A stretch of DNA of 64,000 bases from Promethearchaeota archaeon (lineage in GTDB: Archaea; Asgardarchaeota; Heimdallarchaeia; Hodarchaeales; Hodarchaeaceae), in contig JBHLMN010000003.1 of NCBI GenBank assembly GCA_048938105.1, positions 160,001 through 224,000 of the forward strand, written 5' to 3'. Below the pieces are notes generated by a model that was given only the letters and a program-made list of their open reading frames with translations, was not told the origin of the DNA and made no database searches. The position numbers and the translations under genes were made by a program. This document shows positions 9,540-35,266 of the stretch, in pieces. Each line of letters starts with the position of its first letter. The stretch's first letter is position 1.

Positions 9540-9610
9540 TTCTGGGTAGAATTAGTAATTCAACTAAAAGACCTCTCCTCTATCTTTCTTTTAAAACTTC
9601 CTTTTATTTC

Positions 9611-9913
9611 TTCTATTAACGGAAAAACCTACCTTATTTCTTAGAGGATATCGTGCCGAGAAGGTGCGAACCTTTCGCAAGGAAGGTTTATAAGGGTTAG
9701 TGTGTTAGGGTTTGGTAGGATCAAACTGAAAGATGTAGTTCCTACGGTGGCGCGTTGGGTAAAGATGTGTGTTCTGGAGATGCACCAGAATCGTTATACC
9801 TACTACATCCTAAGTAATCCTATCGGGCTCTTTAATCAAGGGAAGGCGAGTTGAACCTTCGGTTCACTCTTACCTTGCATAAATAGGATTACAGTAGGTG
9901 AGAGTTAATAGAA
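9611..9913 (+). ncRNA. Putative ~300-nt structured non-coding RNA, family unknown
   Basis: No long ORF; GC-richer than its flanks; nested helices 9611-9620/9904-9913, 9627-9632/9894-9899, 9732-9739/9802-9809, 9814-9823/9883-9892; GCAA-capped and UUCG-containing hairpins; G-U pairs favour the + strand. Confidence 0.65.
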
Positions 9914-9980
9914 TCGAGTATTACAAATAAAATCGCATTAATCAGTGGTAATAACAAGGGACTCCAAAATTTTGTGGAAT

Positions 9981-10943: not shown

Positions 10944-11066
10944 TTCACATCATATAATAAAATAAACCCAATGATAAACCTATTCACAAAATAGTTCTTA
11001 AGATGAACTAGAGAATCTTTTCGAAGGTTAATATCCCCATCCTAAAAGTAGGCTTGTAAAAAGGAT

Positions 11067-20325: not shown

Positions 20326-20716
20326 AATTTTCACGTGTGTTTTCTTTTCACGATGCTTAAAGCTTCGCTTGATAATCACATAAAAGAAGAATCAGGTTAA
20401 ATCGAGTAAACTGATGCATATTCGAGCCTTTTGATGTGAATAAAAGCGTTTTTCGTGCAAATTACTTGAAAAAAAAAGAGAATTATTAACCTTTTTATTT
20501 TTGGTTGAATAAATCCACTAATATGATGGTGTTTTGTATTAAACCTGCCAATATTATTGAAGCTTCATAGAGAACAACTAATCAAATATAGTAACAAATT
20601 CAAGCCTGTTTAAGACTTCTCAAGAATAATACCAGAGAAAGTATAAAAATCTCTGGTGTAAAATAATATCGATAAACTAATTTATTTATTTTATAGCCAA
20701 AACTAGTGAGATTTTA

Positions 20717-21133
20717 TGGTAGACTATGAAATTTTTGACAACCAGACGATCTACTATAAGAGTTCAGCCTCCGCTTCCCAAAATTACAGTTTTCACGCAT
20801 CATCTCCTCGAAAATACAGCTGAACCAATATTTCCTGACGTAATAACCTTAAAAAGTAACAAGCAATACATTATAATGTGTCACATTGTCTGATTATGAG
20901 TTGAGAATCAGATAGCTAATATTAGAAGTTAATCTAACAAATCCACTGAGATTGTCAGGGTTCTCTTTAACAAAATGAAAAACAGAAATACTCTATAAAG
21001 ATCAATCGAAAATTATCAAAAAAGGAGAGGCGTTAAGAAGTAAGAAGTTAGAATTTTCACTTTCACTGATCTCTCTCAGGTACAGAATTATAAGATTGCA
21101 TCATCAATATATAAACAACTACAAGTACGCTGA
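20717..21133 (+). pseudogene. Possible decayed gene (PD-(D/E)xK nuclease-like?) upstream of tnpB
   Basis: Protein-like frames broken by several stops and a frameshift, including EPIFPDVITLKSNKQYIIMC. Confidence 0.25.
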
Positions 21134-21189
21134 AATATCAATTATAATTTCAAAAGTAAGATCGCTGACAATCTCACTTTTATTCTCTC

Positions 21190-22480
21190 AGGAAATTCAA
21201 CCAGAGTGAAGTTCTCCTAATGATGGTCACACGAACAGAACAAATCTGGTTAAAACCGAATAAAACCCTCTCTTGGTTCTGTCATCTGTCAAAGAACCTC
21301 TACAACGAAGGAAATTACCAAATCCGTCAGGAGTTTTTCAAACATAACAAATGGATTCACTATCAATCCCTGTATCACATACTAAAAACCTCTAATAGCT
21401 ATTGTCAGCTTCCTGCTCAGACTGCTCAACAGGTCTTGAAAATCCTTGATAGAAATTGGACGTCCTTTTTTAGAGCGATTAAAGAGTGGAGGAATAACAA
21501 ATCAAAATTTAAAGCAAAGCCTAATCTCCCTCGATATAAACCGAAGAATGGGGAGTTTATGTTGGTTTTTACCAATCAACAGGTGAAATTAAAAGATAGA
21601 ATCCTCCGATTTCCTAAGAGAGTCGGATTAGAAATAAAAACAAGACTTCCTGAGAATACTGACATTAGAGAAGTAAGAATAATTCCGAAAGGAGTCGGAT
21701 ATGTATTAGAAATTGTCTATATTAAAATATCTAATCTAAAGGCTTTGAATAAGAATAATATTATTGCAATTGACCTAGGGGTGCGCAACCTCGTAACTGG
21801 GGTCAATAACAATGGATTAAATCCATTTGTTATTAAAGGCGGGGTTGTTAAATCCATTAATCAATACTATAACAAAGAACGAGCGAGAATTCAATCAATA
21901 TATGACCGACAGGGAATAAAAACAGGAAGAAAATTGTCAAAACTGACCAGTAAGCGCAATAAAAAACTTAATGACTATTTTCACAAGATTAGCAAGCGGA
22001 TAATAAACTATTGTGTGGAAAATGACATCGGGACATTAATAATTGGGTATAATCCCAATTGGAAACAAAACTGTCAGATTGGTAAGAGGAATACCCAAAA
22101 TTTTGTCACCTTACCTTTTTATAGACTTGTACATCAGCTTGAATATAAATCTGAGGAACAGGGGATAAAAATCATTAAACAAGAAGAAAATCATTCGAGT
22201 AAGTGTTCATTCTTAGATAATGAGCTAATAAAACATCATACAAGATATCTTGGAAAACGGATTACTAGAGGGTTGTTTAAATCCAAGAGAGGTATAATTA
22301 TCAATGCTGATGTGAATGGAGCATTTAATATTCTTAAGAAAGCAGTCCCAAATGCTTTACTCGCTGATGGGATAGAGGCTGTCGGGTTACAGCCATCACG
22401 ATGGAGATTAGCATCGGTGACGAGCTAGTTGATGACCTCAGGTGAATAAAAGTGATTTTTATTTCATCAGTTTTAATAAC
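21190..22480 (+). mobile_element. Non-autonomous tnpB-only insertion sequence (IS1341-like); left boundary approximate
   Basis: tnpB with no tnpA; structured 3' end finishing near AATAAC at 22480. Confidence 0.6.
21220..22428 (+). CDS. tnpB: RNA-guided nuclease TnpB (IS200/IS605 superfamily), RuvC-II rearranged type
   Basis: KNLYN, IAIDLG (RuvC-I), LIIGYN in place of the RuvC-II Glu, QEENHSSKCS, NADVNGAFNI (RuvC-III). Confidence 0.92.
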   Translation: MMVTRTEQIWLKPNKTLSWFCHLSKNLYNEGNYQIRQEFFKHNKWIHYQSLYHILKTSNSYCQLPAQTAQQVLKILDRNWTSFFRAIKEWRNNKSKFKAKPNLPRYKPKNGEFMLVFTNQQVKLKDRILRFPKRVGLEIKTRLPENTDIREVRIIPKGVGYVLEIVYIKISNLKALNKNNIIAIDLGVRNLVTGVNNNGLNPFVIKGGVVKSINQYYNKERARIQSIYDRQGIKTGRKLSKLTSKRNKKLNDYFHKISKRIINYCVENDIGTLIIGYNPNWKQNCQIGKRNTQNFVTLPFYRLVHQLEYKSEEQGIKIIKQEENHSSKCSFLDNELIKHHTRYLGKRITRGLFKSKRGIIINADVNGAFNILKKAVPNALLADGIEAVGLQPSRWRLASVTS

Positions 22481-22500
22481 CTAAGAGTTCAGAAAATATC
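22340..22500 (+). ncRNA. Putative TnpB omega/reRNA scaffold plus guide
   Basis: Hairpins GGCTGT/ACAGCC (22377-22394) and AGTTGATGA/TCATCAGTT (22427-22472) overlapping the tnpB 3' end, where such RNAs are typically encoded. Confidence 0.55.
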
Positions 22501-22981
22501 CTTAAAGAAAATTATTATCTGAGAAAGCTGGAATAAAATGGACTACTGAAAACTATTGCAATTCGAAATTTTTTGAATATTTAAGGTATTTAATTAATAA
22601 TTACGTGCCCATATAATTCCTCTCTTTCAGATCTAAATTTTTTAATAAAGTGCTATGATTTCAATTTAAAAATTGTTTCACTGTCATGATATAATCAACA
22701 AATCCGACTATATTCAAAATAAACATCATAATAGTTCAAGGTAGTTACTAGAAAAATTTAAAGAAATCATAATGTAACAGGATTTATTCAATAGGAATAT
22801 AAGTGTAAAGTAGATTAGGAACATTCATTCCAATTTTAAAATATCAAGAGAGGTGCGAATGAGATATTAAAACAGGAAAAAAAGTACCGCAATGAATAAT
22901 CTTGTGCCATGTTGTACCACAGAGAGCAAAGATAGTAAAATCGTTAAATTTATAAATAGAGAGATTTTTTAGCTATACACT

Positions 22982-24220
22982 GTGAATGGTGATTTTATGC
23001 AGGAGTTGGAAGGATCTCAGATTGATGATCAGATATCTTCAGATAAAGTCAGGAATTCAGAATTTTGGACAAACAAACAACGTCAAATGAATCATATCCA
23101 TTACACAGTTTCCTACCGCGGTTCTTTTAAACCTGAATTACCACATTTCTTTATATCGAAATATTTAGGGGATAATGGTAATTTAACAAAGTACTTCACT
23201 GATGACGAAGAAAAATTAGTGTTAGATCCTTTTGCAGGGCGAGGAACTACTATTATACAAGCAAACTTAATGGGTTATAATGCAATTGGTAATGATATAA
23301 ATCCATTATTTGAAAAAATATGTTACCCTTTAACTCATCCGCCGAAAATAAATGAAATAGAAGAACGAATTCATGAAATAGATTACTTTAAAAAATCACT
23401 TGATGATTTTAATCTAGAAAAAAAAGAAGATTTGCTTCCTTTTTACCATTCATATACGTTAACACAACTGTTAAATCTCAAAGAATATTTAAGAACGCAT
23501 CATGATGACATCGACAGGTTTATTGAGGTAATTGCTCTCTCTAGGCTCCATGGACATTCACCTGGGTTCTTTTCTGCATATTCATTCCCTCAAATATCAG
23601 TACCCCCCCAAAGGCAAAGAAAAATAAACCAAAAACACAGTTTACCTGTTGAAAAAAATATAGCTGAATTAATTTTGAGAAAAGCAAGAAGATCTCTGCG
23701 AGGAGATATATTTGAACTTGATACATTAAGAAAATATGGTAGGAATTCAATTTTTACTCATGATGACGCTCGAAACCTTCCAAAAGAATTCTATAAGGAT
23801 TCTTTCGTTGATTTAATAATTACTTCTCCCCCATTTTTAGCTCAAGTAGATTACTTAGGGGATAACTGGTTAGAATTCTGGTTCTTAGACATAGATCCTG
23901 ATTCATTTAAAGAAAATCTTGTAATGACCAATAGTATGGAAGTCTGGAAAGATTTCATTAGAAATTCACTAAAGGAAATGTATAGAGTTCTGAAAAACAA
24001 AGGAGTTGTAGTAATAGAAGTGGGAGATGTGAAATATAAACGGGAGAGAATAAATTTAGATGAAATAGTAGAAGATTTAGGTATAGAAGTAGGATTTTCA
24101 ATAATTAAGAGATATATTCATTTGCAGAAATTTACCAAACTCTCAAATTGCTTTAATGTAAGGAACAATATAGATGGAGTAAATACACAGCGAATGGTTG
24201 CCTTTAAAAAGAAAGTATAG
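22982..24220 (+). CDS. DNA amino-methyltransferase (likely N4-cytosine; FxGxG before SPPF)
   Basis: SYRGSFKPELP, DPFAGRGT, ITSPPF. Confidence 0.85.
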   Translation: MNGDFMQELEGSQIDDQISSDKVRNSEFWTNKQRQMNHIHYTVSYRGSFKPELPHFFISKYLGDNGNLTKYFTDDEEKLVLDPFAGRGTTIIQANLMGYNAIGNDINPLFEKICYPLTHPPKINEIEERIHEIDYFKKSLDDFNLEKKEDLLPFYHSYTLTQLLNLKEYLRTHHDDIDRFIEVIALSRLHGHSPGFFSAYSFPQISVPPQRQRKINQKHSLPVEKNIAELILRKARRSLRGDIFELDTLRKYGRNSIFTHDDARNLPKEFYKDSFVDLIITSPPFLAQVDYLGDNWLEFWFLDIDPDSFKENLVMTNSMEVWKDFIRNSLKEMYRVLKNKGVVVIEVGDVKYKRERINLDEIVEDLGIEVGFSIIKRYIHLQKFTKLSNCFNVRNNIDGVNTQRMVAFKKKV

Positions 24221-24230
24221 TGATTCTTTC

Positions 24231-24839
24231 CTAAATTCTTGCTTCTAGAGTCTTTTTGGAGCTTGCAGAGCATTCAATCTTTGTTGTAAGCTCAATGATA
24301 GAAAGGTTAATTAAACGTACTTCATTAGGATAGACGTTAGGAATATCTTCGGTTGATTCTAAATCATAAATAAAAACTAAACCTAAATGATACCCTGATT
24401 TTTCTACTTTAAGACCACGTGGTGAAAGATATAGATAACGTGGACTTGAACCAGTTGTAGATCTCATTGTTTTAATCGTTAAGTAACCGCTGTCAATCTC
24501 AAATCTTGGATAACCAGCCCATCCCAAGCTTTCTATAGAAAGCTTTGTCTGTGTTCGTATCCTATCCTCAATTTCTCTTTGAAACCAAGAAGAAATTTCT
24601 GTTCTTAAATTTGATTCAGGTTCAGGGTCAAACTCCTGACCCCCTTTATTTTGTATGTCATTGATAAGATTATTAGCAACATTTAATAGCTCATTTTTAA
24701 GATTAACACATTCTGTTTTTGTTAAATCAAATTCCCAAACTTTAAAATTTGTTAAAATCTCAATAATTTCTTTTACAGATAATTTTGTATATTTTTCATT
24801 GAATTCTTTTATCAGTTCTTTAAATCTTTTATTTCCCAC
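24231..24839 (-). CDS. Restriction-endonuclease-like protein with degenerate PD-(D/E)xK site
   Basis: AGYPRFEI..GYLTIKT...SSPRYLYLS resembles GYPD..YLExK..S.R.FY.S nucleases, but D>R and E>T. Confidence 0.4.
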   Translation of the reverse strand: MGNKRFKELIKEFNEKYTKLSVKEIIEILTNFKVWEFDLTKTECVNLKNELLNVANNLINDIQNKGGQEFDPEPESNLRTEISSWFQREIEDRIRTQTKLSIESLGWAGYPRFEIDSGYLTIKTMRSTTGSSPRYLYLSPRGLKVEKSGYHLGLVFIYDLESTEDIPNVYPNEVRLINLSIIELTTKIECSASSKKTLEARI

Positions 24840-24950
24840 ATAAATCCCACCTTATGGATTTACTGCATATTTCTCTTAATAGCACCTATTTAATCCCTAT
24901 AAAGTTTTCAATTATTGAATATAAAAGCATTAAGAGGATATACAATGAGT

Positions 24951-25409
24951 TTAGGTAGTTTCATCATCATCTTCATTCATTTCTAGGTTTAATTCAAGGA
25001 GTTTTTCTATTAAAAGTTCTTCTATTGTTTCCGTTTTTGAATCATCTAGTAATAATTCATCTAGTAGGAATATCCCTGCATTAACAAACCTTTGGGCTTC
25101 TGTATAGACTTCTTTCTCCTTTTTTGGATCTAAATAGGTGAGATCACTTTTATATGCAGTCACAATAAAATGTGGTAAATCTTTATAATATCTTTCCAAT
25201 GCAATTCTACTTACTAATGGTTTATTACCTAAAGGCTCCTCTTTTTGCGTTTTTGCCTTATAACCGAAGGCTAATGCCCAAGCCCAAATCGTGGCATTGG
25301 TAGCTTTACTTTTAAATATTTCATGATTTGCTAAATTTAATACGATATCTTGAGCTCTTGATGGAAAACGTAAGTCTCTTGGTGCTTCTTCTATCTGTTG
25401 ATTGGACAT
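24951..25409 (-). CDS. PbeD-like / dnd-associated small protein
   Basis: F...IWAWALAFGY...AQRFVNAGIFLL; lies after the SMC-like ATPase. Confidence 0.6.
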   Translation of the reverse strand: MSNQQIEEAPRDLRFPSRAQDIVLNLANHEIFKSKATNATIWAWALAFGYKAKTQKEEPLGNKPLVSRIALERYYKDLPHFIVTAYKSDLTYLDPKKEKEVYTEAQRFVNAGIFLLDELLLDDSKTETIEELLIEKLLELNLEMNEDDDETT

Positions 25410-25422
25410 TTAAATACCTCTA

Positions 25423-27378
25423 TTAAGAAATTTCTGTAGTACCTGAAATTTTATCATATTTTAGATTTATAATTTTATTGATAAATCGATCTAAACCTTT
25501 TTTAACAGCACCAGTGTACTCAGAAGGAGTTGCTAATATGGTTATTTGACTATTTTTTAAATATTTAGGAAGGTTTTGAGATATGTTCCGTCTAGCAGCT
25601 TCGCCTATTCTACCAAAAGGTGTATCAATTATAACAGGTAAATCGAATCCAGATACATCTCTCACAGCTGTGATAAATGCTAAGGCTAAGAAATTCTGTT
25701 CTCCTGCTGAAAGTGATCCTAGTGCTTCTTTCCCAAATTTTTTTATTGATAAACCACTCTCTGTTTCAAGTGAAATTGTATCAAAAGTGTTTTCATCTTT
25801 CCAATGAAACTCTCTAAAATAATCATTCATTTTTTTATTAACTTTCATCATTGTTTCTGATTCAATGTTAATTTTAGCTTTTTCTAAAATCTCTATTGCA
25901 GCATTAGTTAAATCACGTCTTTTAACACTTAATTTGTGCTTTTTTTGTTTATTTAATTCATTATTAATTTTAGTATCAACTTCTATTTCATTAGACTTAA
26001 ATTGATCAATAGAGTGCTCTAACCGACCAATAGATCGTGTTAAATCGTAAATTCGTTTTTCTAAAGATTTACGCTGTGTTTCAAGTGCTTTTACGAACTC
26101 TTCAGGATTGTCTTTTAAAATCTCACTGATTTGTTTGCTTCTGAGAGTGTTTAAATTAATTTGATTTTGAATTGCACTTATTTCACTCCTTAATCTTTTC
26201 AGTCTTATTGATAAATTTTTATACTTAGTTTGTTGAACTAATATTTCTTTATATTTTGTTTGCGCTATTTGAATAAATTCTTGTGTAATGAGAGTTTTTA
26301 AAAGAAATTCTACTTCCTTTCTGTGTATACTGCCTTCTGTTAATTCCTGTTTACATATACATAAACCTTGTTCTAATAATTGCTTAACAAAAGTATCCTT
26401 AATATCAGGAGGAAATTCACCGATTTTTTCCTTATTATCTATTAGTTCTCGAACTTTTTTAAGAGCTGAATTACTTAGAAAAAAAGGACCTTCATACTGA
26501 GTATATTTTAAACGTTCTTCTTCAAGACTTGAGCGATTTTTATTCAGTGTCTTCCTCTGAGTTTCTAGCTCTTGTCTTTCATTAGCTAATTTTTGGATAT
26601 CTTGACCTTTACATGTTTCGTATTCTCTATCAATCTTATTTTTTTCAGATTCAGCTAATGTTAAAGCCCTTTTATTTTCCATTATCTGAGATTGGGTTGT
26701 AGTTTTCTTACTTTCTAACATATCTCTTTCTTTTAATAAATATTCAAGATTAGGATTGTGCTTTGCTACTTCTTTTGCATAATCTTTTTTTACTTCTTTC
26801 AATTTCCGTATTGTCTCTTTAAGAATGTCAATTCGTGCTAATTTTTCAATTCCTTTTGCGACCGTATCGCTTACTGTTGATAGGAAATAGTTCTCTAACT
26901 GTTCTCCATCAAAAAGAAAGAAGTCAATTAAATCTTCAGGAATGTTTTGCCCAATAAAGATGTTTGGGTCAGTTAAAGATACAGGATTAGGATTATTTTT
27001 AGGTATTAAAACAGCAGTAAGCTTCTGCCCATCAATATCGCCATTGTAAATGGTAGATTCTCGTGTTATAATTAATTCATCATATTTCTTATTAGAATCT
27101 GCTAAATCAAAACTAATTTCTACCAATACTTGTTTAAGTTCGTTAGATGTTTCATTATCGAGTATTTGAGTAGGTATAGGAAGTTCATCGTAATCTGTGG
27201 TTTTCCGTTCCTTTCCATATAGACACCAAGAGATACTGTTTAGAAAGTTGGTCTTACCCTCTCCATTTTCACCAATTATAAGCGTGATATTCTTCCCCTC
27301 ATTATTATTCTTAAATTCTAATTCTTGATGTCCTTTAAATTGACGATAATTTTCTAATACAATCTTTTTGATTCTCAT
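25423..27378 (-). CDS. SMC/Rad50-like ABC ATPase (DndD/PbeC-like)
   Basis: MRIKKIVLENYRQF, GENGEGKT, FFLFDGE, coiled coil with central CIC, LSAGE, IIDTPFGR; ATG at 27378. Confidence 0.85.
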   Translation of the reverse strand: MRIKKIVLENYRQFKGHQELEFKNNNEGKNITLIIGENGEGKTNFLNSISWCLYGKERKTTDYDELPIPTQILDNETSNELKQVLVEISFDLADSNKKYDELIITRESTIYNGDIDGQKLTAVLIPKNNPNPVSLTDPNIFIGQNIPEDLIDFFLFDGEQLENYFLSTVSDTVAKGIEKLARIDILKETIRKLKEVKKDYAKEVAKHNPNLEYLLKERDMLESKKTTTQSQIMENKRALTLAESEKNKIDREYETCKGQDIQKLANERQELETQRKTLNKNRSSLEEERLKYTQYEGPFFLSNSALKKVRELIDNKEKIGEFPPDIKDTFVKQLLEQGLCICKQELTEGSIHRKEVEFLLKTLITQEFIQIAQTKYKEILVQQTKYKNLSIRLKRLRSEISAIQNQINLNTLRSKQISEILKDNPEEFVKALETQRKSLEKRIYDLTRSIGRLEHSIDQFKSNEIEVDTKINNELNKQKKHKLSVKRRDLTNAAIEILEKAKINIESETMMKVNKKMNDYFREFHWKDENTFDTISLETESGLSIKKFGKEALGSLSAGEQNFLALAFITAVRDVSGFDLPVIIDTPFGRIGEAARRNISQNLPKYLKNSQITILATPSEYTGAVKKGLDRFINKIINLKYDKISGTTEIS

Positions 27379-27391
27379 ACTATATTCATTC

Positions 27392-27610
27392 CTATTTTGG
27401 GATGAATCCTTCAATGACTTTCTTATAATGCTTCTTGTATGTTTTAGCATCAGTTGTTATTAATCTATGTTCTGTATTCAATATGTTTTCAAGAAATGTT
27501 TTCATTTTTATCAAATCAAGTCCAGCGAGATCTTCTTTGCTATACTTATCACAAACATCAATAACTTTGGAGATAATTGTTTTTAAACTTCTTATTTGAT
27601 ACAGGGACAT
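27392..27610 (-). CDS. Small protein between helicase and ATPase (PbeB-like position)
   Basis: 72 aa; GAGG upstream; 11-bp and 13-bp gaps to its neighbours. Confidence 0.6.
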   Translation of the reverse strand: MSLYQIRSLKTIISKVIDVCDKYSKEDLAGLDLIKMKTFLENILNTEHRLITTDAKTYKKHYKKVIEGFIPK

Positions 27611-27621
27611 GTATTTTCCTC

Positions 27622-29691
27622 TTATTCTCTTCTACTTATTCTATCTCTTATTTTTAATAGTGTTGAAGCTGAAATCTCGGGATTCCGTGATGTTTTTGTA
27701 AATTGAACATATCTTTGAAGCTCTCTACTATACATTTGACTAAAATCATTGTCAAAAGAAGAGCCTCGTGCAGGAATTACAATAAAATCATGAATACTAG
27801 CAAATTCTTTATCCCTATATGTTCTTAGAATTCTCCCTCGTCTTTGTATGAATTCCCTTGGATTCATTGTACTTGCCATTATTACTGCATTTTTAATGCC
27901 AGGGATATCTAAACCTTCATCAAGGCATTTAATTGCAACTAATACCTTAATGGTACCTGTGTTGAATTTGTTTAATATTAAGCTTCTTTCTTTTTCTGTT
28001 TCTTGTGCTGTATATCTTTGATGTTGATATATATCAAGCTCATTGAGCATATTTTGAACTTCATAAACCTGTTCTAGATCTCCACAATAGATTAATGTTT
28101 TTTCTAATTTGATTAATCCATTTGATATTAATTCTTTTAAGCGAGGAGATTTTTTTGATGCTTTACGGATAATTTTTGCCCTTTCTATGAGGTTCTTTTT
28201 GACATTATCTGGAACATTCTCCTCATCTAATAAATATGCCATATTTTTGATTCTAGATGAAATTCGGATATATTCTCTTGATTCTTCGATATTTAATTCA
28301 ACGATATGAGGATAGTAATCATAAGGAACAAGATGTCCATCCTCAATTGCTTGTTTTAGAGAATACTGATAAATTATGTCATGAAAATAGTCTTTTATTG
28401 ATGTACTCCCCTCTTCATCAAACCAACGTTCTGGAGTTGCACTCAATCCTAATCTAAATTTAAAAATGTCAATCATCCCTGCTTGTCTATTTCGAGCTCC
28501 AAAATTATGGACTTCATCCGCAATAATCATAGCATTATTACATTTTTTCAAGTAATTAAGGGATTTTGGAGTAGATAATTTATCATATGTCAATACAATG
28601 AAAGTTATATTATTAGAACCCCATAAATGAAAATTAACAGCTTTTCTCAACTTATCTATCCATTGATGATCAAGTTTCCATACATTTTGTCCGTATTCAG
28701 TTAAAATCTTTGTCCATTGATCAACAATTACAACATATGGACAAACAATAACAACTAATAGTGATTTCGTTAGTTTTTCATGCAATTCGATGGCAGCTTT
28801 AATTGCTGCAAGTGTTTTTCCACTTCCTGTAGACATCTGCCAAATACCATTATGATCCGCAATATGCCATATCTTGATAGCTTCTAGTTGGTGTTTCCAG
28901 AGATCTGGAAGAAGTTTCTCCTCTTTCTTAATACATACGCCTTTATACCATCGTAATAGACGTGCTTTCATTGATTCAATAGATTTAGGTGCCATATTAA
29001 TTAGACGATCTTTCACTGCTTCTGGAACATCATATGTTTTTGCCCTTTTAAGAGAACCATCCCAATATTTTTTAAATTTGTTTAAATCTGCTTCAAGATA
29101 TCCTTTTTGAACTTCTTCCCAGCTTTTGTATACCTTAAACTCTTCTATATTACCCATCCAGCCTGTTATGGATTCATTAATTGATCCACTAAAAGAAACA
29201 CGTTCTCCAAAAGCATCTTTGAGAATACCAATCTTAGGATGAAACATGATATTAGACTTACCTGCTGGTATAACATTTCCTTTATTATCTACCATAACTA
29301 TGATTTTTATTTCAAGTTTCTTACTCGCTACTAGCCATCCTAATGCAGCTATATGATCTTGAATTATTTCTTTTTCAATTGTATTCAAATCAGATAAGAG
29401 TTTTTTTGATAACACATTACTTAATTCTTCTCCTGATTGAATCGCTTCGATATCACAGGTTCGAAGTTTAGCATCAGCCACTAACTTCATTTTGCCATCA
29501 TTAATAACTAGCCCTGCGATCCCTCTTGCTGCAATTAAAAGAGCACTAGAAGAAAATGAGCCAGTTACGCGGAGATATTCAACAGATCGTTCTAAAACTG
29601 GTTGAAAAAAACAAGAAACGATATTCTCATCTTCATCAGAATCATAAGAAAGCTTCAGGTCTAAGTCTCGGAAAGATTTTCTGTTTTTCAA
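27622..29691 (-). CDS. PLD-domain + superfamily 2 helicase (PbeA-like / dnd-associated restriction helicase)
   Basis: HPKIGILKD..GSINES (HKD); MSTGSGKT, DEVH, LSATP, LDEGLDIP, QRRGRILR. Confidence 0.85.
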   Translation of the reverse strand: MKNRKSFRDLDLKLSYDSDEDENIVSCFFQPVLERSVEYLRVTGSFSSSALLIAARGIAGLVINDGKMKLVADAKLRTCDIEAIQSGEELSNVLSKKLLSDLNTIEKEIIQDHIAALGWLVASKKLEIKIIVMVDNKGNVIPAGKSNIMFHPKIGILKDAFGERVSFSGSINESITGWMGNIEEFKVYKSWEEVQKGYLEADLNKFKKYWDGSLKRAKTYDVPEAVKDRLINMAPKSIESMKARLLRWYKGVCIKKEEKLLPDLWKHQLEAIKIWHIADHNGIWQMSTGSGKTLAAIKAAIELHEKLTKSLLVVIVCPYVVIVDQWTKILTEYGQNVWKLDHQWIDKLRKAVNFHLWGSNNITFIVLTYDKLSTPKSLNYLKKCNNAMIIADEVHNFGARNRQAGMIDIFKFRLGLSATPERWFDEEGSTSIKDYFHDIIYQYSLKQAIEDGHLVPYDYYPHIVELNIEESREYIRISSRIKNMAYLLDEENVPDNVKKNLIERAKIIRKASKKSPRLKELISNGLIKLEKTLIYCGDLEQVYEVQNMLNELDIYQHQRYTAQETEKERSLILNKFNTGTIKVLVAIKCLDEGLDIPGIKNAVIMASTMNPREFIQRRGRILRTYRDKEFASIHDFIVIPARGSSFDNDFSQMYSRELQRYVQFTKTSRNPEISASTLLKIRDRISRRE

Positions 29692-30089
29692 AATTTTTCT
29701 CCATAGTTCCCCATTAATTAACTTTAAAAATTTGATAAAAAGAAGTTTTATTGACTTTTATAAATGTTCCTACGTAGAAGTGTTGGTTCTATATTATTAC
29801 TAATGAATTAATAATGATTCATCTAATAATAGGAGAGATATTCAGAATTTATGTATTTAAGCTGAAATTCCGAACCTATTAATGTTATGACTTTATTCCT
29901 ATAAGTTAATAAAAGATATATATTTGGTAAAAGTGAATTTAGTTATATTCTTTGAATCAATAATTGAAGAAATAAATTAATATTAAAATAATCAAGAGGG
30001 AAATTAATGATAATAATTAGATTATTAGTAAAAATAATAAAAATGAGTAATCTACATTTCTAGGAGGCAATATGGCATTGTGAGGAAAT

Positions 30090-30836
30090 ATGTCAAATGT
30101 CAATTTATGCTTCCAATTTCATTTTATACTTACAGCCTATTTTATTTTATGGTTCAAAACACATAACCTCTGGGAGAATATTTTTGTACTTGCTAAAGAC
30201 AAGAAACAGTATCATATTAATCCAAAGGCAATAGGAATTCCATATGCTGATAAATCAAACATAGGAAGATACTCTGTTGAAGATCTGAGAGACGCAGGAA
30301 ATATATGGTTAGTACCCTACTCCAAGACCACAGGAGCTACAATAAAAAAAGGCCATGAGGCACCTTTCCCAATAGAATTACCATATAAGTGTATCAAATT
30401 ATCTGAGGGAGAAACAATTCTAGATCCATTTGCTGGAACAGGAAGTACTCTAGCAGCTTCACGAATACTGAAAAAGAAGGGATTTGGATATGAGAAGTTT
30501 CCCCGTAAAGAGATTATTCGTAAAAGAATCATGGAAAGTTCTTTCCAAGATTCTCTCCCTGTACTTATTCCCCATATGGAACTAGCAATTAATATTCTTA
30601 CACATTATTGTAATAAGATTGAATATAATGATTTCAAAAAAGAAGGAACGCTAAAGCTCTCCCAAAAAGAAAAATCTGACTTGAATATTCTCAAAGATGT
30701 CTTAGATCGATTAGGACTTCAACTTCCCATTTTAGATTATTATTTTAATCAACAAGGAAAAAATCAGCTAGATAAAGAAAGTGTCAAGAAGACTGAGTCA
30801 CTTACAAAGTTTCTAAAAAAAAGCTTCAATGATTAA
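30090..30836 (+). pseudogene. 5'-truncated beta-class DNA methyltransferase
   Basis: Has ENIFVLAK, GNIW, HEAPFPIELP and DPFAGTGST but lacks the N-terminal (D/S)PPY half; preceded by AT-rich non-homologous DNA. Confidence 0.7.
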
Positions 30837-30884
30837 CATCTTTCACATTCCTAAGGTAAGACATCAACCAGGAGCTAATTATTC

Positions 30885-32324
30885 TTGAATGAGTCAATTC
30901 AAGTCAGGAATTATGCCTTCAAACAGAACTTGAAAGATATTATTCCATCTGGTAACTATTTAACGCACAATCTATACTCTTATCCCGCAAAATTCATCCC
31001 ACACGTACCTTACTATGTTATATCAAAATTCACAAAAAAAGAAAATAGTATTGTATTGGATCCCTTTGCTGGAAGTAGTTCAACAGCAATTGAAGCCTTA
31101 CACTTAGGTCATAATTCAATTTGCATTGATATCAATCCTCTTACAAATTTCCTCACTGAAGTAAAAACCCAACGAATAGCATTTAATTTGACTCAACAAA
31201 CTCCAATGAAGTTAGATGGTTTCTTGGGAGCTGCTTATGACAAAAGAAACGAAAGAAAAATTAAAACCATTGATCTAAAGCTATTCATTGAAGAAATGCA
31301 AAAAAATGATGAAAGATTCTACCCTAAATGGAAAAATATTGATCATTGGTATCCTGAGGAGTTTAAACATATACTTGCGAAAATTTGGGGGTTTATTTAT
31401 TCTAAAGAAGACAAATATCCAAAAAACCTTATGAATTTACTTAAATTAACTGCATTATATGTTTCTCGTTATTTGTCGTATGGAGCGCGTGATGTACCTA
31501 AATTATTCAGATCAAAACGGAGAATAGTACAAGTTGAAGAACTACGTAAAAAAGTAGAAATTAATCCTAATATTCCATATAATACCTTCCGCAAAACACT
31601 CCTTAATAATTTTAATCAAATGAAAGAATTTGCAAGAATTCTTGAAAAAAAGAACATTACTCCAAAATATGAATATGAAATCAGCTCTAGCAGTATTCGA
31701 AACAAGACGATTAATACTAGGAAAATCGTCTGTTTAGGCGATACGGATGTTTTATCCTACAATTTTCCTATTTATGAAGAATTTATTGATTTAATTATTA
31801 CTTCTCCTCCATATATTTATGCTCAAGAGTATATCAGATCAACAAAGTTGGATCTCTATTGGATGAACCTAGTTGATGATGAGCGGGTGAGAGAACTTAC
31901 GAAAAAAGAATTAGGTACTAAAAAAGACGCTGATATTGAATTAATCAAAACCAAATTGGGAAATATTGACTCTTTTAATTTAACAGCTGAAAATATTGAA
32001 AAAAATGAGAGAAAAAAATATGGTAAAGTTGGGAAATATACTCAACAGACCTATAATTATTTTTATGACATGTATTTGATTATTGAAAAACTAAGCAGCT
32101 ATATTAAGCAAAATGGAACATTTGGTTTGTTTATTGGAAATCCAACTATCTTAGGATACCAAGTTCCTTGCCATAGAATTTTCTACGAAATATTCTCAGA
32201 TCTGGGATTAAACATTATTGAATTTGGATATGACGAAATTGTCTCCCCTCGGCTGCTAAAAGGGCGACAAAATTTATCACCAGAGGGTATGAAAGCAGAG
32301 TGGTTGATTGTCGCTCAGAAATAA
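30885..32324 (+). CDS. DNA methyltransferase (likely N4-cytosine, alpha motif order)
   Basis: THNLYSYPAKFIP, DPFAGSS, ITSPPY. Confidence 0.88.
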   Translation: MNESIQVRNYAFKQNLKDIIPSGNYLTHNLYSYPAKFIPHVPYYVISKFTKKENSIVLDPFAGSSSTAIEALHLGHNSICIDINPLTNFLTEVKTQRIAFNLTQQTPMKLDGFLGAAYDKRNERKIKTIDLKLFIEEMQKNDERFYPKWKNIDHWYPEEFKHILAKIWGFIYSKEDKYPKNLMNLLKLTALYVSRYLSYGARDVPKLFRSKRRIVQVEELRKKVEINPNIPYNTFRKTLLNNFNQMKEFARILEKKNITPKYEYEISSSSIRNKTINTRKIVCLGDTDVLSYNFPIYEEFIDLIITSPPYIYAQEYIRSTKLDLYWMNLVDDERVRELTKKELGTKKDADIELIKTKLGNIDSFNLTAENIEKNERKKYGKVGKYTQQTYNYFYDMYLIIEKLSSYIKQNGTFGLFIGNPTILGYQVPCHRIFYEIFSDLGLNIIEFGYDEIVSPRLLKGRQNLSPEGMKAEWLIVAQK

Positions 32325-32344
32325 TTGGTTCCCCTAATACGTTT

Positions 32345-33616
32345 TTAGGGGGAAATTAAATCATTGTCTACTGCAAAAGGCAACCGTTTATGAAATAGAA
32401 TAGTCACAAAAAAGGATAATAATATTAATAGGAACATGAATGCGAAACCTGCGATTGGTGATTGAAACAGATCCAATAACGCACCAAAAATTGTGGGTGA
32501 AGTTGAACTAACCACTAATCCTAACGAAAATACAATTGAATAAAAAAAAGTCCTACTTTCTTGGGGTACAAGATCACTCATTAGGGCTTGGAGAGTTCCC
32601 CCAGCAAGGTAGAAACAAATAGCACATAATGAAAAGCCAAAAAGGATTGCCCATATCACAGAGAAGTTTTCAGTAAGAAAAATGAGAATTAAGATCGCAA
32701 GACTAGTTCCTACAGCAGACAATAAAATGATTTTCACCCGTCCATAAGAACCAGATTTATCACTGATATAAGCTCCGTAGATATCGCTCCCAGAACCCAA
32801 TATTAGAATGAAACTGGTCATAACCCCAGCTTCAAAGGATTGGACACCATAGAAATCTCGTAGCAATGTAACAGTAAAAAAACTAATCAATCTATATACT
32901 CCTCCCCTTAGTGCGCTCATAATGATAACTAAACCTAATGTTACTAAAATCCAATTTTTAAATTCAATTCTTGAGGTATTGTTTGTCAGATTCTCCCGAA
33001 CCTCATTATCATTATTATTTTGAATTAATGATGAATACTGGGGTATTAATTTTCGAATAATAAGCCAGATAGTCATAAAAATCAAGAGTGTAAAGCAACT
33101 AAAACCAAGTAAGGAGAATGTTTGCCTCCAGTCACCCAGTACAAAAATAGTGAGTCCAAGTGTTCCTAAGGGGGCGAGAGCAGTTCCAATTACACCAGCT
33201 GCATGATTCACTGCCATAGCTTTGCCTCTATTCTCCCCTCTAAAAGAATTTGCTGCCACTCCTAATCCTATAGGGTGAAAAGTAGTACATCCAAGTCCTA
33301 AGATAATATTTCCAATGAAAAGATAAAAGAAATCCAAAGAGATAGATATTATGAAACTAGAAAGACCAAATAGGAAGATACCGAGTAAAATAATATAAAA
33401 TCCCAATCCAGCATTTCTTCCTAAATAACCAATCAATGGTGATGTAATTGCCATGATTAAAATGGGCAGAGATCCAAGTATCCCCATTTCTAAATAACTC
33501 ATTGATATTTCCTGGGAAATAAGTATAAGCATTGCTGGAAATGCGTAAAGTTCAACGTGATGGATAAAATGAGCAAATGACATAAATGAGAGTAACTGTA
33601 ATCGCACTGATGACAT
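32345..33616 (-). CDS. MFS transporter
   Basis: About 12 TM segments; GLGCTTFHP, RGKAMA, GAYISDK. Confidence 0.88.
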   Translation of the reverse strand: MSSVRLQLLSFMSFAHFIHHVELYAFPAMLILISQEISMSYLEMGILGSLPILIMAITSPLIGYLGRNAGLGFYIILLGIFLFGLSSFIISISLDFFYLFIGNIILGLGCTTFHPIGLGVAANSFRGENRGKAMAVNHAAGVIGTALAPLGTLGLTIFVLGDWRQTFSLLGFSCFTLLIFMTIWLIIRKLIPQYSSLIQNNNDNEVRENLTNNTSRIEFKNWILVTLGLVIIMSALRGGVYRLISFFTVTLLRDFYGVQSFEAGVMTSFILILGSGSDIYGAYISDKSGSYGRVKIILLSAVGTSLAILILIFLTENFSVIWAILFGFSLCAICFYLAGGTLQALMSDLVPQESRTFFYSIVFSLGLVVSSTSPTIFGALLDLFQSPIAGFAFMFLLILLSFFVTILFHKRLPFAVDNDLISP

Positions 33617-33652
33617 GAATAAAACTAGATGAAATCTTTCTATAAGTTTTAC

Positions 33653-35038
33653 TCAATCATTATATTTTAAAGGACAAATCAAAGAAAACTGAAGCCCTTC
33701 TTTTGGTAAGATGTCGTTTATAGTTAATTTCCCATGAATTTCTCTAAGCAATACATCCGCAAGGTAAATTTCCATTAAAAATTCCGATTTTTTGGGTGAT
33801 TTTGTTTTTTTTAGAAAAGTTCTCCCATCATCTGTGATAGTTAATTGTAGGCTCTTTTCGGAGGCTAATTCAATATCAATTGTAATTTCATTAGATGATC
33901 TCTCAAGAGAATTTTGTATTATCTGTTCAATGGCTATTATTAAGATTCTAGGACAACTGTAGAAGTTTGGATTTTTCACCTGCAAGTTAAAGTTGATTGT
34001 GCTACCTTTCGATTCAGCAAGAGGATTTATCAGTTCGTTCAATTCATTAATTAATTCTTCAATCGACACAAGTAAAAGAGGGTATTCAAAAATTGGCTTC
34101 AAGCTTTCAAAATCACTAATTTGGCGATTAAGCCGAATAACTTTTTCAATAATTCCGATTAACTTGTCCACTCGTTCGTTTTGCTCGGGTAATGAAGCTT
34201 GAAGTATATCTAACCAACCTCGTGTGAGAAGTAATTGTTCTGAAATCTCAGACATTATCATCTTGAGTAAAAATCCACGAGTATCAGCTAATCTATCACT
34301 TTCAAGATATCGATCAGTGATGTCAACACAAACAACGATTATTCCATTATAATTCGATTGAGAATCATAAAGTGGAGCAGTTGAAATTAAAAATGTTTTG
34401 TCACGGCCAAACTTTGCTTTTAATTTTATTTCATGATGTCTAAGCGGGATCTTCTCTCTGCCTATGATCTTAGCTTCAATTGATTTGAATTCTTCAGGAT
34501 GAGTAACCTCAAAGAAATCTTTGTTTATAAGCTCTGTTTTGTGATACTTCAATATTCCGCATAGAACTGGATTTACAAATACAATTTTCCCATGTTTATC
34601 TAAGATCATAAGACCTTCGTGAATGTTTTCAATAAAAGCTCGATAGGTCGCTTCTGATTCTTTCAATTGTTTCATACTTAATTGCTCTTTAGTGATATCT
34701 TTGACGAGTCCAAGGATAATATTGAAGCGTCGAATGTCGAGAATTGTAAGATCAAGTGAGATAATATCCCTCCCGCGAGTGAAGGCTCGAACTTCACCTT
34801 GAAAATATCCTTTTTGTTCTAATGTGTTTAGAGGTAACTGAATATCCTGAGGAAGTAGGAAGTCCCAAAGAACTAAACCATTAACGTCTGTACTAGAATT
34901 GTAACCATGAATTTGGGCAAAAGCATTGTTAGAAGTAATGATTTTTGTTGTTTTACGGTCTAGTACGAATACTCCAGATGAAGAAATATTTTCGATAATT
35001 TCCTCTATAAAATTAATTACTTGCTCTTGAGGGTACAA
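33653..35038 (-). CDS. PAS-PAS sensor with degenerate histidine-kinase module
   Basis: Two PAS/PAC domains (..KDIT, ..VDIT); H-box His absent, G2 box degenerate. Confidence 0.75.
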   Translation of the reverse strand: MYPQEQVINFIEEIIENISSSGVFVLDRKTTKIITSNNAFAQIHGYNSSTDVNGLVLWDFLLPQDIQLPLNTLEQKGYFQGEVRAFTRGRDIISLDLTILDIRRFNIILGLVKDITKEQLSMKQLKESEATYRAFIENIHEGLMILDKHGKIVFVNPVLCGILKYHKTELINKDFFEVTHPEEFKSIEAKIIGREKIPLRHHEIKLKAKFGRDKTFLISTAPLYDSQSNYNGIIVVCVDITDRYLESDRLADTRGFLLKMIMSEISEQLLLTRGWLDILQASLPEQNERVDKLIGIIEKVIRLNRQISDFESLKPIFEYPLLLVSIEELINELNELINPLAESKGSTINFNLQVKNPNFYSCPRILIIAIEQIIQNSLERSSNEITIDIELASEKSLQLTITDDGRTFLKKTKSPKKSEFLMEIYLADVLLREIHGKLTINDILPKEGLQFSLICPLKYND

Positions 35039-35266
35039 TTCATTGCGACCTAAAGTTTTTCCCCTCGCTGAAACACTTTTTTACTTGAATATTTTGTCTA
35101 TCCATCTCTTTGGAGATTATTATGGAATAAGTTATTCAATATGGTGAAATATTAGTATTTTGAAGCTAAAAAGGTTATCTAGAGAATATTTCCGCAAATA
35201 ACAAATGAAGACATATTCTAGAGAATTTCTCCGCACATTAAAAAATATATTTTCATTAAGAAGAGG

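What the first reader, a model, noticed from the sequence alone, without database searches (positions are those of the whole stretch)
22982..32324. PbeABCD-like defence operon paired with DNA methyltransferases instead of phosphorothioation genes
Seen: a tight minus-strand operon (PLD-helicase, 72-aa protein, SMC-like ATPase, 152-aa protein, nuclease-like protein), visibly AT-rich, between three plus-strand MTase genes; no dndA/C/E in the window. Known: this four-gene architecture matches PbeABCD, the antiviral effector coupled to Dnd phosphorothioation in haloarchaea; MTase-adjacent pbe loci have been noted bioinformatically. Inference: a methylation-gated, or stand-alone, Pbe-type antiviral system with a fifth component, in an Asgard-like host.
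Basis: partly seen in the sequence, partly recalled or inferred. Interest (0 to 1): 0.75.

Follow-up and report, generated by a model that had tools for sequence, protein, structure and literature searches.

The report
Pbe cassette beside a restriction-modification system
An Asgard (Hodarchaeales-type) archaeon carries a complete, already-described four-gene Pbe antiviral cassette, but the "fifth gene" and the three methylase genes around it are an ordinary MjaV-type restriction-modification pair and two resident methylase genes (one cut short), so this is two known defences side by side, not a new methylation-coupled system.

Summary
The minus-strand operon is a genuine pbeABCD cassette (the CxC-ABC-ATPase system): PbeA has intact HKD, Walker A and DEVH motifs, PbeC has the CxC hook, the 152-aa protein folds like DndE, and a 72-aa PbeB lies between them.

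The claimed pairing does not hold:
- **The 202-aa "nuclease-like fifth component"** is a MjaV-family type II restriction enzyme. It lies convergent to the 412-aa SPPF (m4C-type) methylase. The same pair sits at the syntenic site in four related contigs that have no pbe.
- **The 248-aa and 479-aa methylase genes** are resident genes of the genus, present in congeners that lack pbe.
- **The 248-aa ORF** is a 5'-truncated remnant. The intact 356-aa gene in a congener has SPPY at residue 34, and the window copy starts at codon 134.

In three congeners the flanks are contiguous, so window 20516-30162 (TnpB, the R-M pair and pbeABCD; 30.8% GC against 35.1% genome-wide) is a strain-specific islet.

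The genome has no canonical dndC or dndE. Contig C63 does carry a non-canonical sulfur-writer-like cluster with a second Pbe set.

Pbe loci next to methylases, and solitary pbe loci, are already published. Verdict: a new member of a known kind, of low to moderate interest.

The parts
27622..29691 (-). pbeA: HKD (PLD-type) nuclease domain fused to an SF2 helicase
   Evidence: PADLOC PbeA 4.8e-205. TIGR04095 dnd_restrict_1 scores 410 bits, below its 600-bit cut-off. H151, K153, D159, G169-S-x-N172, GKT291-293 and DEVH392-395 are invariant in a 13-sequence alignment.
27392..27610 (-). pbeB: small 72-aa protein between pbeA and pbeC
   Evidence: No family hit. Position and size match PbeB (66 aa in H. 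jeotgali, PMC6459918). It is 38% identical to the 69-aa ORF at the same position in the closest cassette, L025.
25423..27450 (-). pbeC: CxC-clade coiled-coil ABC ATPase (likely start at 27378, M25)
   Evidence: PADLOC PbeC 2.3e-108. TIGR03185 DndD scores only 162 bits against a cut-off of 246. CIC at residues 364-366 lies mid-protein, and a CxC is present at the aligned position in 53 of 62 relatives.
24951..25409 (-). pbeD: DndE-like double ribbon-helix-helix protein (152 aa)
   Evidence: 52-53% identical to the L025 PbeD, which carries PF27807 DNA_S_mod_dnd_assoc_4. The AlphaFold model has pLDDT 86 and pTM 0.81. All of the top 17 PDB matches are DndE (4lrv, 5wtu, 7x4e; probability 0.97-1.0, TM 0.61-0.69).
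24231..24839 (-). MjaV-family type II restriction endonuclease (202 aa), not a Pbe component
   Evidence: Its four homologues (61-88% identity) all carry PF27324 MjaV. Weak PADLOC REase_II hit, 3e-6. The convergent pairing with the MT412 homologue is conserved in L021-L024, which have no pbe.
22982..24220 (+). Cognate methylase of the R-M pair: 412 aa, motif I FAGRG84 before motif IV SPPF282 (m4C-type, permuted order)
   Evidence: PADLOC MTase_II PDLC03325 6.4e-81. Motifs. 75% identical to the methylase convergent on the MjaV homologue in L021-L024.
21220..22428 (+). IS200/IS605-type TnpB (OrfB_IS605 + Cas12f-like TNB), a multi-copy element
   Evidence: Pfam 4e-25 and 4.9e-11. Many 74-78% DNA copies in this genome and its congeners.
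30090..30836 (+). 5'-truncated remnant of a resident beta-class m4C methylase (248 aa; motif I only)
   Evidence: Pfam match covers only profile positions 96-211. No xPPY motif and no upstream coding frame. The congener gene is 356 aa with SPPY34, and homology to the window starts at 30163, which is codon 134.
30885..32324 (+). Resident orphan methylase (479 aa; FAGSS ~61, SPPY307)
   Evidence: 68-75% identical over its full length to genes at the same place in congeners G009, G008 and G011, which lack pbe and the REase.
20516..30162 (.). Strain-specific islet (TnpB + R-M pair + pbeABCD) that replaces 351-605 bp in congeners
   Evidence: The flanks, window 16000-20515/20767 and 30163-35240, are contiguous in G009 (gap 521 bp), G011 (605 bp) and G008 (351 bp). 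GC is 30.8% against 35.1% for the genome.

Best explanation
Window 20516-30162 is a strain-specific defence islet in a Hodarchaeales-type Asgard genome. It holds two separate, already-known modules plus an IS element.

**Module 1: a MjaV-family type II restriction-modification pair.**
- The 412-aa SPPF methylase marks host sites. By analogy with M.MjaV this would be m4C.
- The convergent 202-aa endonuclease cuts unmarked incoming DNA.

**Module 2: a complete pbeABCD (CxC-ABC-ATPase) cassette.** The following steps are inferred from the family, not shown here.
- A PbeC dimer with the DndE-like PbeD scans DNA.
- The HKD-nuclease/SF2-helicase PbeA is the effector that blocks or cuts unmarked viral DNA.
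- The small PbeB is a regulator or adaptor.

**The other two methylase ORFs** (248 and 479 aa) are resident genes of the genus. The insertion, or a deletion that came with it, removed the promoter and the first 133 codons of one of them, including the catalytic SPPY motif.

**The mark that this Pbe reads is not settled.** My odds are:
- about 35%: a phosphorothioate-like mark written in trans by the sulfur-writer-like cluster on contig C63;
- about 40%: no cognate mark, meaning the cassette acts independently of a mark or is currently inert, like the many solitary pbe loci;
- about 12%: m4C from the neighbouring methylases.

The stated confidence applies to the architectural claim: two independent known modules side by side, with the methylases and the REase not being integral Pbe components.
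For: **Pbe identity.**
- PADLOC scores for PbeA and PbeC.
- Intact HKD, Walker A and DEVH motifs.
- Conserved CxC hook.
- PbeD has the DndE fold.
- 11-13 nt spacers within the operon, against 111 nt before the 202-aa gene.

**R-M identity.**
- All homologues of the 202-aa protein carry Pfam MjaV.
- They lie convergent to a 75%-identical methylase in four contigs with conserved flanks (o195 72%, o447 63%) and no PbeA, PbeC or PbeD match.
- R.MjaV is an active enzyme, and M.MjaV makes m4C in GTAC (PMC2615612, PMC2588503).

**Resident methylases and the islet.**
- A DNA search against 19 congeners joins the two flanks across 351-605 bp in G008, G009 and G011.
- Proteins of the flanks are 60-90% identical.
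- G009 has an intact 356-aa SPPY methylase where the window has the 248-aa stub.
- PbeA, the REase and MT412 were not found in the 20 same-genus genomes searched.

**Context of relatives.**
- The closest Pbe cassette, L025 (PbeA 56% identical), has no dnd gene or methylase on its 12-kb contig.
- The next closest, L026 and L027 (42%), are canonical dndBCDEA-pbeABCD.
- Of 19 relatives with at least 5 kb on each side, 4 have dndC, 3 have an ORF with methylase motifs and 12 have neither.
- Homologues of these particular methylases lie next to pbe only in L132, and weakly.

**Second Pbe set.** It sits on C63 next to a PAPS-reductase/4Fe-4S protein, a cysteine desulfurase and an ABC ATPase.
Against: - **Physical adjacency is real.** Xiong et al. 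found MTases within 10 kb of 155 of 320 solitary pbeAC loci. The Aravind group reports C5 and circularly permuted N4C methylases in CxC-system neighbourhoods (PMC6459918, PMC10853773). MT412 and MT479 have that permuted order, with motif I before SPPF/SPPY.
- **Co-acquisition is not excluded.** The R-M pair and pbe are both missing from the congeners searched, so they could have arrived as one unit within this genus.
- **Co-transcription is not excluded.** The REase gene is on the pbe strand, 111 nt downstream.
- **Writing in trans is uncertain.** No canonical DndC or DndE is found in the genome. The window PbeD shows no sequence similarity to the 175-aa protein in the C63 Pbe set, so reading a mark written by C63 is not assured.
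- **Specificity is unconfirmed.** GTAC is not depleted in the genome (observed/expected 1.01), so GTAC specificity or long residence of the R-M pair has no support.
Confidence: 0.78

Rival explanations
1. Methylation-gated Pbe. m4C written by MT412 and/or MT479 replaces phosphorothioate as the self mark that PbeABCD reads, giving a methylase-coupled CxC-ABC system.
For: - Two intact SPPF/SPPY methylases lie within 1-3 kb of the operon.
- The literature proposes exactly this coupling for some CxC systems (PMC10853773) and for solitary pbeAC loci (PMC6459918).
- No canonical dndC or dndE is found in the genome.
- Some PbeA relatives do have a C5 or SPPY methylase ORF directly adjacent: L091, L094, L105, L120, L132 and L133.
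Against: - Each methylase has an independent explanation. MT412 pairs with the MjaV-type REase in relatives without pbe.
- MT479 and the ancestor of MT248 are resident in congeners without pbe.
- The arrival of the islet destroyed one methylase rather than recruiting it.
- The closest Pbe cassette, L025, has no methylase on its contig.
- None of the methylases is in the pbe operon.
Confidence: 0.12
2. Five-gene Pbe variant. The 202-aa REase-like protein has been co-opted, possibly as a nuclease-dead modification reader, into the Pbe machinery.
For: - It is on the same strand, 111 nt downstream of pbeD.
Against: - GYPRFE and YLxIK are invariant in all four homologues (61-88% identity). These sit in plain methylase/REase contexts without pbe, so the residues are family features and not a private degeneration.
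- The spacer is ten times longer than those within the operon. It contains a TTTATA box about 58 nt upstream of the start and a GGTGG motif that is conserved with L021.
- An 88%-identical homologue sits on a 2.1-kb contig with 879 bp upstream in which no gene was called.
Confidence: 0.05
3. Trans-dependent Pbe. The window cassette is a second reader/effector for a phosphorothioate-like mark written by the C63 cluster (ABC ATPase, BrxP/DndC-like PAPS reductase with 4Fe-4S, SAM-methyltransferase-domain protein, DndA/SspA-like cysteine desulfurase). This is compatible with the architectural reading above. It is a rival only on the question of which mark is read.
For: - The characterised PbeABCD needs PT to protect (PMC6459918).
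- The nearest annotated relatives, L026 and L027, are dnd-linked.
- The genome carries a sulfur-writer-like cluster flanked by its own PbeA, 175-aa and PbeC genes.
- Parts of that writer occur in congeners at 66-72% DNA identity.
Against: - The writer is non-canonical. Its DndC score is 27-29 bits against a cut-off of 290, no DndE model hits, and its chemistry is unproven.
- The two Pbe sets are distant (PbeA 32-35% identical), and the PbeD-position proteins are unrelated in sequence. This argues for different DNA targets.
Confidence: 0.35
4. Inert passenger. A solitary pbeABCD acquired by horizontal transfer without a cognate modification, currently non-functional.
For: - Xiong et al. raise this for the 58% of pbeAC loci that lack dnd (PMC6459918).
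- The cassette has low GC and is absent from the 20 congeners searched.
Against: - All four ORFs are intact with invariant catalytic motifs.
- The PbeD model is well folded.
- 12 of 19 well-flanked relatives are likewise solitary. Such a frequency is hard to reconcile with general inactivity.
Confidence: 0.2

Closest known systems
DndCDEA-PbeABCD of Haloterrigena jeotgali A29 (Xiong et al. 2019, PMC6459918)
   Same: Same four genes in the same order. PbeA is PLD/HKD + ResIII + helicase. PbeB is small (66 aa there, 72 aa here). PbeC is a coiled-coil ABC ATPase. PbeD is 152 aa in both.
   Different: No dndCDEA next to it, and no canonical DndC or DndE anywhere in the genome. The host is an Asgard archaeon, not a haloarchaeon. 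Activity and dependence on PT are untested.
CxC ABC-ATPase/DndE-anchored systems, including methylase-linked versions (Aravind group, PMC10853773)
   Same: CxC hook in the ATPase, a DndE-fold partner, an HKD-SF2 effector and a small rapidly evolving protein. Methylases with the permuted N4C-type motif order lie nearby.
   Different: The methylases here are not operonic with the system. They are explained by a neighbouring R-M pair and by resident genes. No MTaX1-type gene was identified.
MjaV type II restriction-modification system of Methanocaldococcus jannaschii (MJ1500; GTAC, m4C; PMC2615612, PMC2588503)
   Same: The REase is of the Pfam MjaV family (through its homologues). Its partner methylase has an S-P-P-F motif IV typical of m4C enzymes. 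The gene pair is tight and convergent.
   Different: Recognition site and activity are untested. GTAC is not depleted in this genome. In related contigs a second methylase (the MT479 homologue) lies upstream of the REase.
Non-canonical sulfur-writer + permuted Pbe locus on contig C63 of the same genome (earlier finding e1-5543267)
   Same: Second PbeA (PADLOC 5e-150) and PbeC (1e-41, CVC hook) in the same organism.
   Different: Gene order there is pbeC, 175-aa gene, pbeA, facing a PAPS-reductase/cysteine-desulfurase/ABC cluster. The window cassette has the canonical A-B-C-D order and no writer beside it.

Membership tests
PbeABCD / CxC-ABC-ATPase system | PbeA: HKD (PLD-superfamily) nuclease domain fused to an SF2 (ResIII/DEAD) helicase | tested here: met
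   PADLOC PbeA 4.8e-205, with ResIII, DEAD and Helicase_C domains. H151-x-K153...D159...GSxN, GKT and DEVH are invariant in alignment A3.
PbeABCD / CxC-ABC-ATPase system | PbeC: coiled-coil ABC ATPase with a CxC Zn-hook at the apex, distinct from DndD | tested here: met
   PADLOC PbeC 2.3e-108. The DndD model TIGR03185 scores below its cut-off, 162 against 246 bits. CIC364-366 aligns with a CxC in 53 of 62 relatives.
PbeABCD / CxC-ABC-ATPase system | PbeD: cognate DndE-like protein with two ribbon-helix-helix repeats and a long C-terminal helix, encoded directly after the ATPase | tested here: met
   Model pLDDT 86 with beta-alpha-alpha twice plus long helices. The top 17 PDB matches are all DndE. 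52-53% identical to a PF27807-bearing PbeD. No direct Pfam or NCBIfam hit in the local libraries.
PbeABCD / CxC-ABC-ATPase system | PbeB: small, rapidly evolving protein between pbeA and pbeC | tested here: met
   A 72-aa ORF at the right position with no family hit. 38% identical to the L025 counterpart.
Dnd-Pbe defence as experimentally defined (PT-dependent) | Adjacent or genomic dndCDEA (or dndBCDEA) writing phosphorothioate | tested here: not met
   None in the window. The best genomic DndC match is 28.9 bits against a cut-off of 290, and there is no DndE match. Only a non-canonical PAPS-reductase/cysteine-desulfurase cluster on C63.
Dnd-Pbe defence as experimentally defined (PT-dependent) | PT-dependent block of viral DNA replication | not testable with these tools
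   Needs virus challenge and PT chemistry.
Methylase-coupled CxC-ABC systems (PMC10853773) | A cytosine methylase (C5 or permuted N4C) that is a conserved neighbour of the CxC-DndE core, often with MTaX1 | tested here: not met
   Methylases are adjacent, but MT479 and MT248 are resident in congeners without pbe, and MT412 travels with the REase without pbe. The closest cassette, L025, lacks them. MTaX1 was not searched with a model.
Type II R-M, MjaV family | REase belonging to Pfam PF27324 (MjaV) | tested here: met
   All four homologues (61-88% identity) carry PF27324 in precomputed annotation. The model is not in the local Pfam copy, so the window protein itself could not be scored. PADLOC REase_II 3e-6.
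Type II R-M, MjaV family | A tightly linked cognate methylase that is conserved as a pair | tested here: met
   Convergent, 10 bp apart in the window. The same arrangement holds in L021-L024, with 75% (methylase) and 62-65% (REase) identity.
Type II R-M, MjaV family | Cleavage at GTAC, blocked by m4C | not testable with these tools
   Only indirect data. The SPPF motif fits an m4C enzyme. GTAC observed/expected is 1.01, which is uninformative.

The most novel reading that the evidence does not exclude
The pbeABCD cassette has been captured into a resident methylase/restriction hot spot and now uses m4C from MT412 and/or MT479 as its self mark. The MjaV-type nuclease might be co-transcribed as an added effector. 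This would be a natural methylation-gated Pbe system in an Asgard archaeon, and the first concrete candidate for testing the predicted methylase-coupled CxC-ABC systems.
Probability: 0.1. Interest if true: 0.6.

Novelty: new member of a known kind. Interest (0 to 1): 0.27.

Why it matters
- **For annotation.** The locus shows how a defence islet can look like a new multi-gene system when two known modules and truncated resident genes lie together.
- **For Pbe biology.** It adds a well-defined solitary pbeABCD in a Hodarchaeales-type Asgard genome that also carries a second, writer-linked Pbe set. That makes the organism a reasonable place to ask what solitary Pbe cassettes read.
- **For the field.** It does not open a new mechanism. 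MTase-adjacent and solitary pbe loci were already reported in 2019 and 2024.

Tried and rejected
- **Close relatives of PbeA in genome contigs, single-protein query:** no confirmed relative. I switched to the genome search and to a profile scan of metagenome contigs.
- **Direct family hits for the 152-aa, 72-aa and 202-aa proteins** in Pfam, NCBIfam and PADLOC at E up to 10: none useful apart from a weak REase_II hit. The relevant models, PF27807 and PF27324, are newer than the local Pfam copy.
- **phmmer of the 152-aa protein against 1.84 billion representatives:** only 3 hits. A profile search of PDB sequences gave nothing. The fold comparison settled the question.
- **Structure of the 202-aa REase from a 5-sequence alignment:** pLDDT 60, too poor for a fold search, so I ran none.
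- **Flanking direct or inverted repeats that would mark the ends of the pbe cassette or the islet:** only short, chance-level matches.
- **Bacterial promoter and terminator scan:** fewer promoter-like sites than in shuffles, and not applicable to an archaeon.
- **GTAC avoidance as a sign of a long-resident GTAC R-M:** observed/expected 1.01, uninformative.
- **'Three active MTases':** rejected, because one is a stub.
rejected as stated, because the residues are invariant across the family.
- **Homology between the L021 242-aa ORF and MT248:** none.

Full report
**What is there.** The ORF map and family scans show the following, in window coordinates:
- TnpB of an IS200/IS605 element (21220-22428, +).
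- A 412-aa methylase (22982-24220, +).
- A 202-aa ORF (24231-24839, -).
- A tight minus-strand operon: the 152-aa ORF (24951-25409), PbeC (25423-27450), the 72-aa ORF (27392-27610) and PbeA (27622-29691).
- ORFs of 248 aa (30090-30836, +) and 479 aa (30885-32324, +) with methylase homology.
- An MFS transporter.

PADLOC gives PbeA 4.8e-205 and PbeC 2.3e-108. Homology in PbeC begins at M25. With that start, the spacers between the four pbe genes are 11-13 nt, whereas 111 nt separate pbeD from the 202-aa gene.

**Is it Pbe?** I tested each defining feature.
- **PbeA** keeps H151-x-K153, D159, GSxN169-172, the GKT Walker A motif and DEVH. All are invariant in a 13-sequence alignment.
- **PbeC** has CIC at 364-366. 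A CxC sits at the aligned place in 53 of 62 relatives. The DndD model scores below its cut-off. This makes it the CxC-clade ABC ATPase that the Aravind group equates with PbeC (PMC10853773).
- **The 152-aa protein** has no hit in the local libraries and only three phmmer hits in 1.84 billion representatives. It is 52-53% identical to a PbeD that carries PF27807. It aligns with 24 proteins found at the PbeD position. It models at pLDDT 86 as two beta-alpha-alpha units plus long helices. Its top 17 PDB matches are all DndE.
- **The 72-aa ORF** is at the PbeB position and is 38% identical to its counterpart in the closest cassette.

The four-gene membership is therefore met. The lengths even match H. 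jeotgali: PbeD is 152 aa in both, and PbeB is 66 aa there against 72 aa here (PMC6459918).

**The 'fifth component'.** The 202-aa protein has four database homologues at 61-88% identity, all annotated with Pfam PF27324 'MjaV'.
- In contig L021 (NCBI SDBT01019122.1) and in three JGI metagenome contigs, the gene lies convergent to a methylase 75% identical to MT412, and a few bases apart from it. A homologue of MT479 lies upstream, and LAGLIDADG genes are nearby.
- These contigs share flanking genes with the window (o195 72%, o447 63%, o189 64%). They give no match to PbeA, PbeB, PbeC or PbeD.
- R.MjaV is an active type II enzyme, and M.MjaV makes m4C in GTAC (PMC2615612, PMC2588503). MT412 has FAGRG84 and SPPF282, an m4C-type motif IV.
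Those residues are invariant in all homologues, so they are family features.

I conclude that the 202-aa gene and MT412 form an ordinary MjaV-type R-M pair. Its specificity is not shown, and GTAC is not depleted in the genome (observed/expected 1.01).

**The other two methylases.** A 20-kb DNA query against 19 congeners shows two conserved flanks.
- Window 16000 to about 20515-20767, and window 30163-35240, are conserved and directly adjacent in G009 (gap 521 bp), G011 (605 bp) and G008 (351 bp).
- Protein comparison confirms the order o442, o447, o195, then a methylase, then the MT479 homologue, then MFS.
- In G009 the first methylase is 356 aa, with SPPY at residue 34 and FVGIG at 224. Homology to the window begins at 30163, which is codon 134.
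- The window ORF of 248 aa therefore lacks the catalytic motif. The 400 bp upstream holds no frame that could supply it. It is a truncated remnant.
- MT479 is full length and 68-75% identical to the congener genes.
- PbeA, the REase and MT412 were not found in the 20 same-genus genomes searched.

So window 20516-30162 (30.8% GC against 35.1% genome-wide) is a strain-specific islet of TnpB, the R-M pair and pbeABCD. It replaced the promoter and 5' third of a resident methylase gene. No terminal repeats were found. Whether the R-M pair and pbe arrived together cannot be decided. The R-M pair alone occupies the syntenic site in the more distant L021-L024 lineage. An 88%-identical REase homologue sits on a 2.1-kb contig with 879 bp upstream in which no gene was called.

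**Phosphorothioation genes.**
- In the 99%-complete, 5.85-Mb assembly the best DndC match scores 28.9 bits (cut-off 290), and DndE is not found.
- Following the weak hits led to contig C63. It carries an ABC ATPase, a PAPS-reductase/4Fe-4S protein (PADLOC BrxP 9e-68, SspD 8e-12, DndC 6e-9), a protein with a SAM-methyltransferase domain, and a DndA/SspA-like cysteine desulfurase.
- That cluster faces a second PbeC (CVC hook), a 175-aa protein and a second PbeA (5e-150).
- Parts of this writer occur in congeners at 66-72% DNA identity.
- An earlier follow-up of this scan (e1-5543267) read it as a non-canonical sulfur writer. I found it independently and did not test its chemistry.
- It means 'no PT genes' holds for the window but not clearly for the genome.

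**Context of Pbe relatives.**
- PbeA has more than 3000 relatives at E < 1e-30.
- The closest, L025 (56% identical), is a solitary pbeABCD followed by an LRR protein.
- The next closest, L026 and L027 (42%), are canonical dndBCDEA-pbeABCD.
- I collected 83 loci and scored the 19 with at least 5 kb on both sides. Of these, 4 have dndC, 3 have an ORF with methylase motifs (a crude motif screen) and 12 have neither.
- Homologues of MT412, MT479 or the REase lie beside pbe only in L132, and weakly.
- This matches the published figures: 58% of pbeAC loci are solitary, and about half of those are near some MTase (PMC6459918).

**How it most likely works.** The R-M pair acts as a classical type II system. 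This is inferred from family and gene arrangement.

For Pbe, only the parts list is shown here. The mechanism is inferred from PMC6459918 and PMC10853773:
- A PbeC dimer with the DndE-like PbeD scans DNA.
- PbeA supplies translocase activity and, given its intact HKD motif, probably nuclease activity.
- PbeB modulates the complex.

The self mark is open. My odds are about 35% for a PT-like mark from C63 in trans, about 40% for no cognate mark, and about 12% for m4C from the neighbours. The main reason to keep the methylation reading alive is the literature's statistical association, together with the permuted N4C-type architecture of MT412 and MT479. The main reason against it is that every methylase here has an independent and better-supported explanation.

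**Host.** Flanking proteins are 84-93% identical to MAGs deposited as Candidatus Hodarchaeota or Heimdallarchaeota, including the closed genome CP070695.1, which is G009. The host is therefore Asgard. The genome is methylase-rich, with 33 N6_N4_Mtase-matching stretches.

**Verdict.** The locus is a new member of a known kind. The general idea of methylase-adjacent or solitary Pbe is already published.

Noticed in passing
G000 contig C63:79900-92000 (locus L006:3457-15991): A second Pbe-like set (PbeC with a CVC hook, a 175-aa protein and PbeA) faces a cluster of ABC ATPase, BrxP/SspD/DndC-like PAPS reductase with 4Fe-4S, a 732-aa protein with a SAM-methyltransferase domain, and a DndA/SspA-like cysteine desulfurase. 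GC is 30.3%. Parts of the writer match congeners G005 and G004 at 66-72% DNA identity. An earlier finding of this scan already covers it.
   Followed up: partly
whole genome G000: CCGG is strongly under-represented (observed/expected 0.33 under a Markov model) and GGCC is over-represented (1.27). The other 4-base palindromes lie between 0.82 and 1.09. This suggests long-standing CCGG-directed restriction.
   Followed up: no
window 21182-22485: The TnpB (IS200/IS605, Cas12f-like) element is multi-copy. At least eight 72-77% DNA copies (full or partial) occur in this genome (C4, C6, C11, C52), and many more occur across congeners.
   Followed up: partly
L021:9136-10338, L022:1785-2693, L023:292-1200, L024:271-1179: LAGLIDADG homing-endonuclease genes lie beside or inside the MjaV-type R-M locus in the related contigs. 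In L022-L024 one sits between the MT479 homologue and the REase gene. This chromosomal site appears to be an insertion hot spot.
   Followed up: no
L026:1-1263 and L027:1-879, 20771-22024: The canonical dndBCDEA-pbeABCD loci closest to this PbeA lie between a Terminase_6N gene and, in L027, a phage-type integrase. The whole Dnd-Pbe unit may ride on an integrated element or provirus.
   Followed up: no
L025:2601-4336 and 9229-11946: The closest Pbe cassette (PbeA 56% identical) is preceded by a 343-aa protein resembling the C-terminal half of an SMC protein and by a 149-aa protein. It is followed by a protein of more than 900 aa made of leucine-rich repeats.
   Followed up: no
whole genome G000: 33 stretches match the N6_N4_Mtase model, about 26 genes, several with internal stops. 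The genome is unusually rich in this methylase family.
   Followed up: partly
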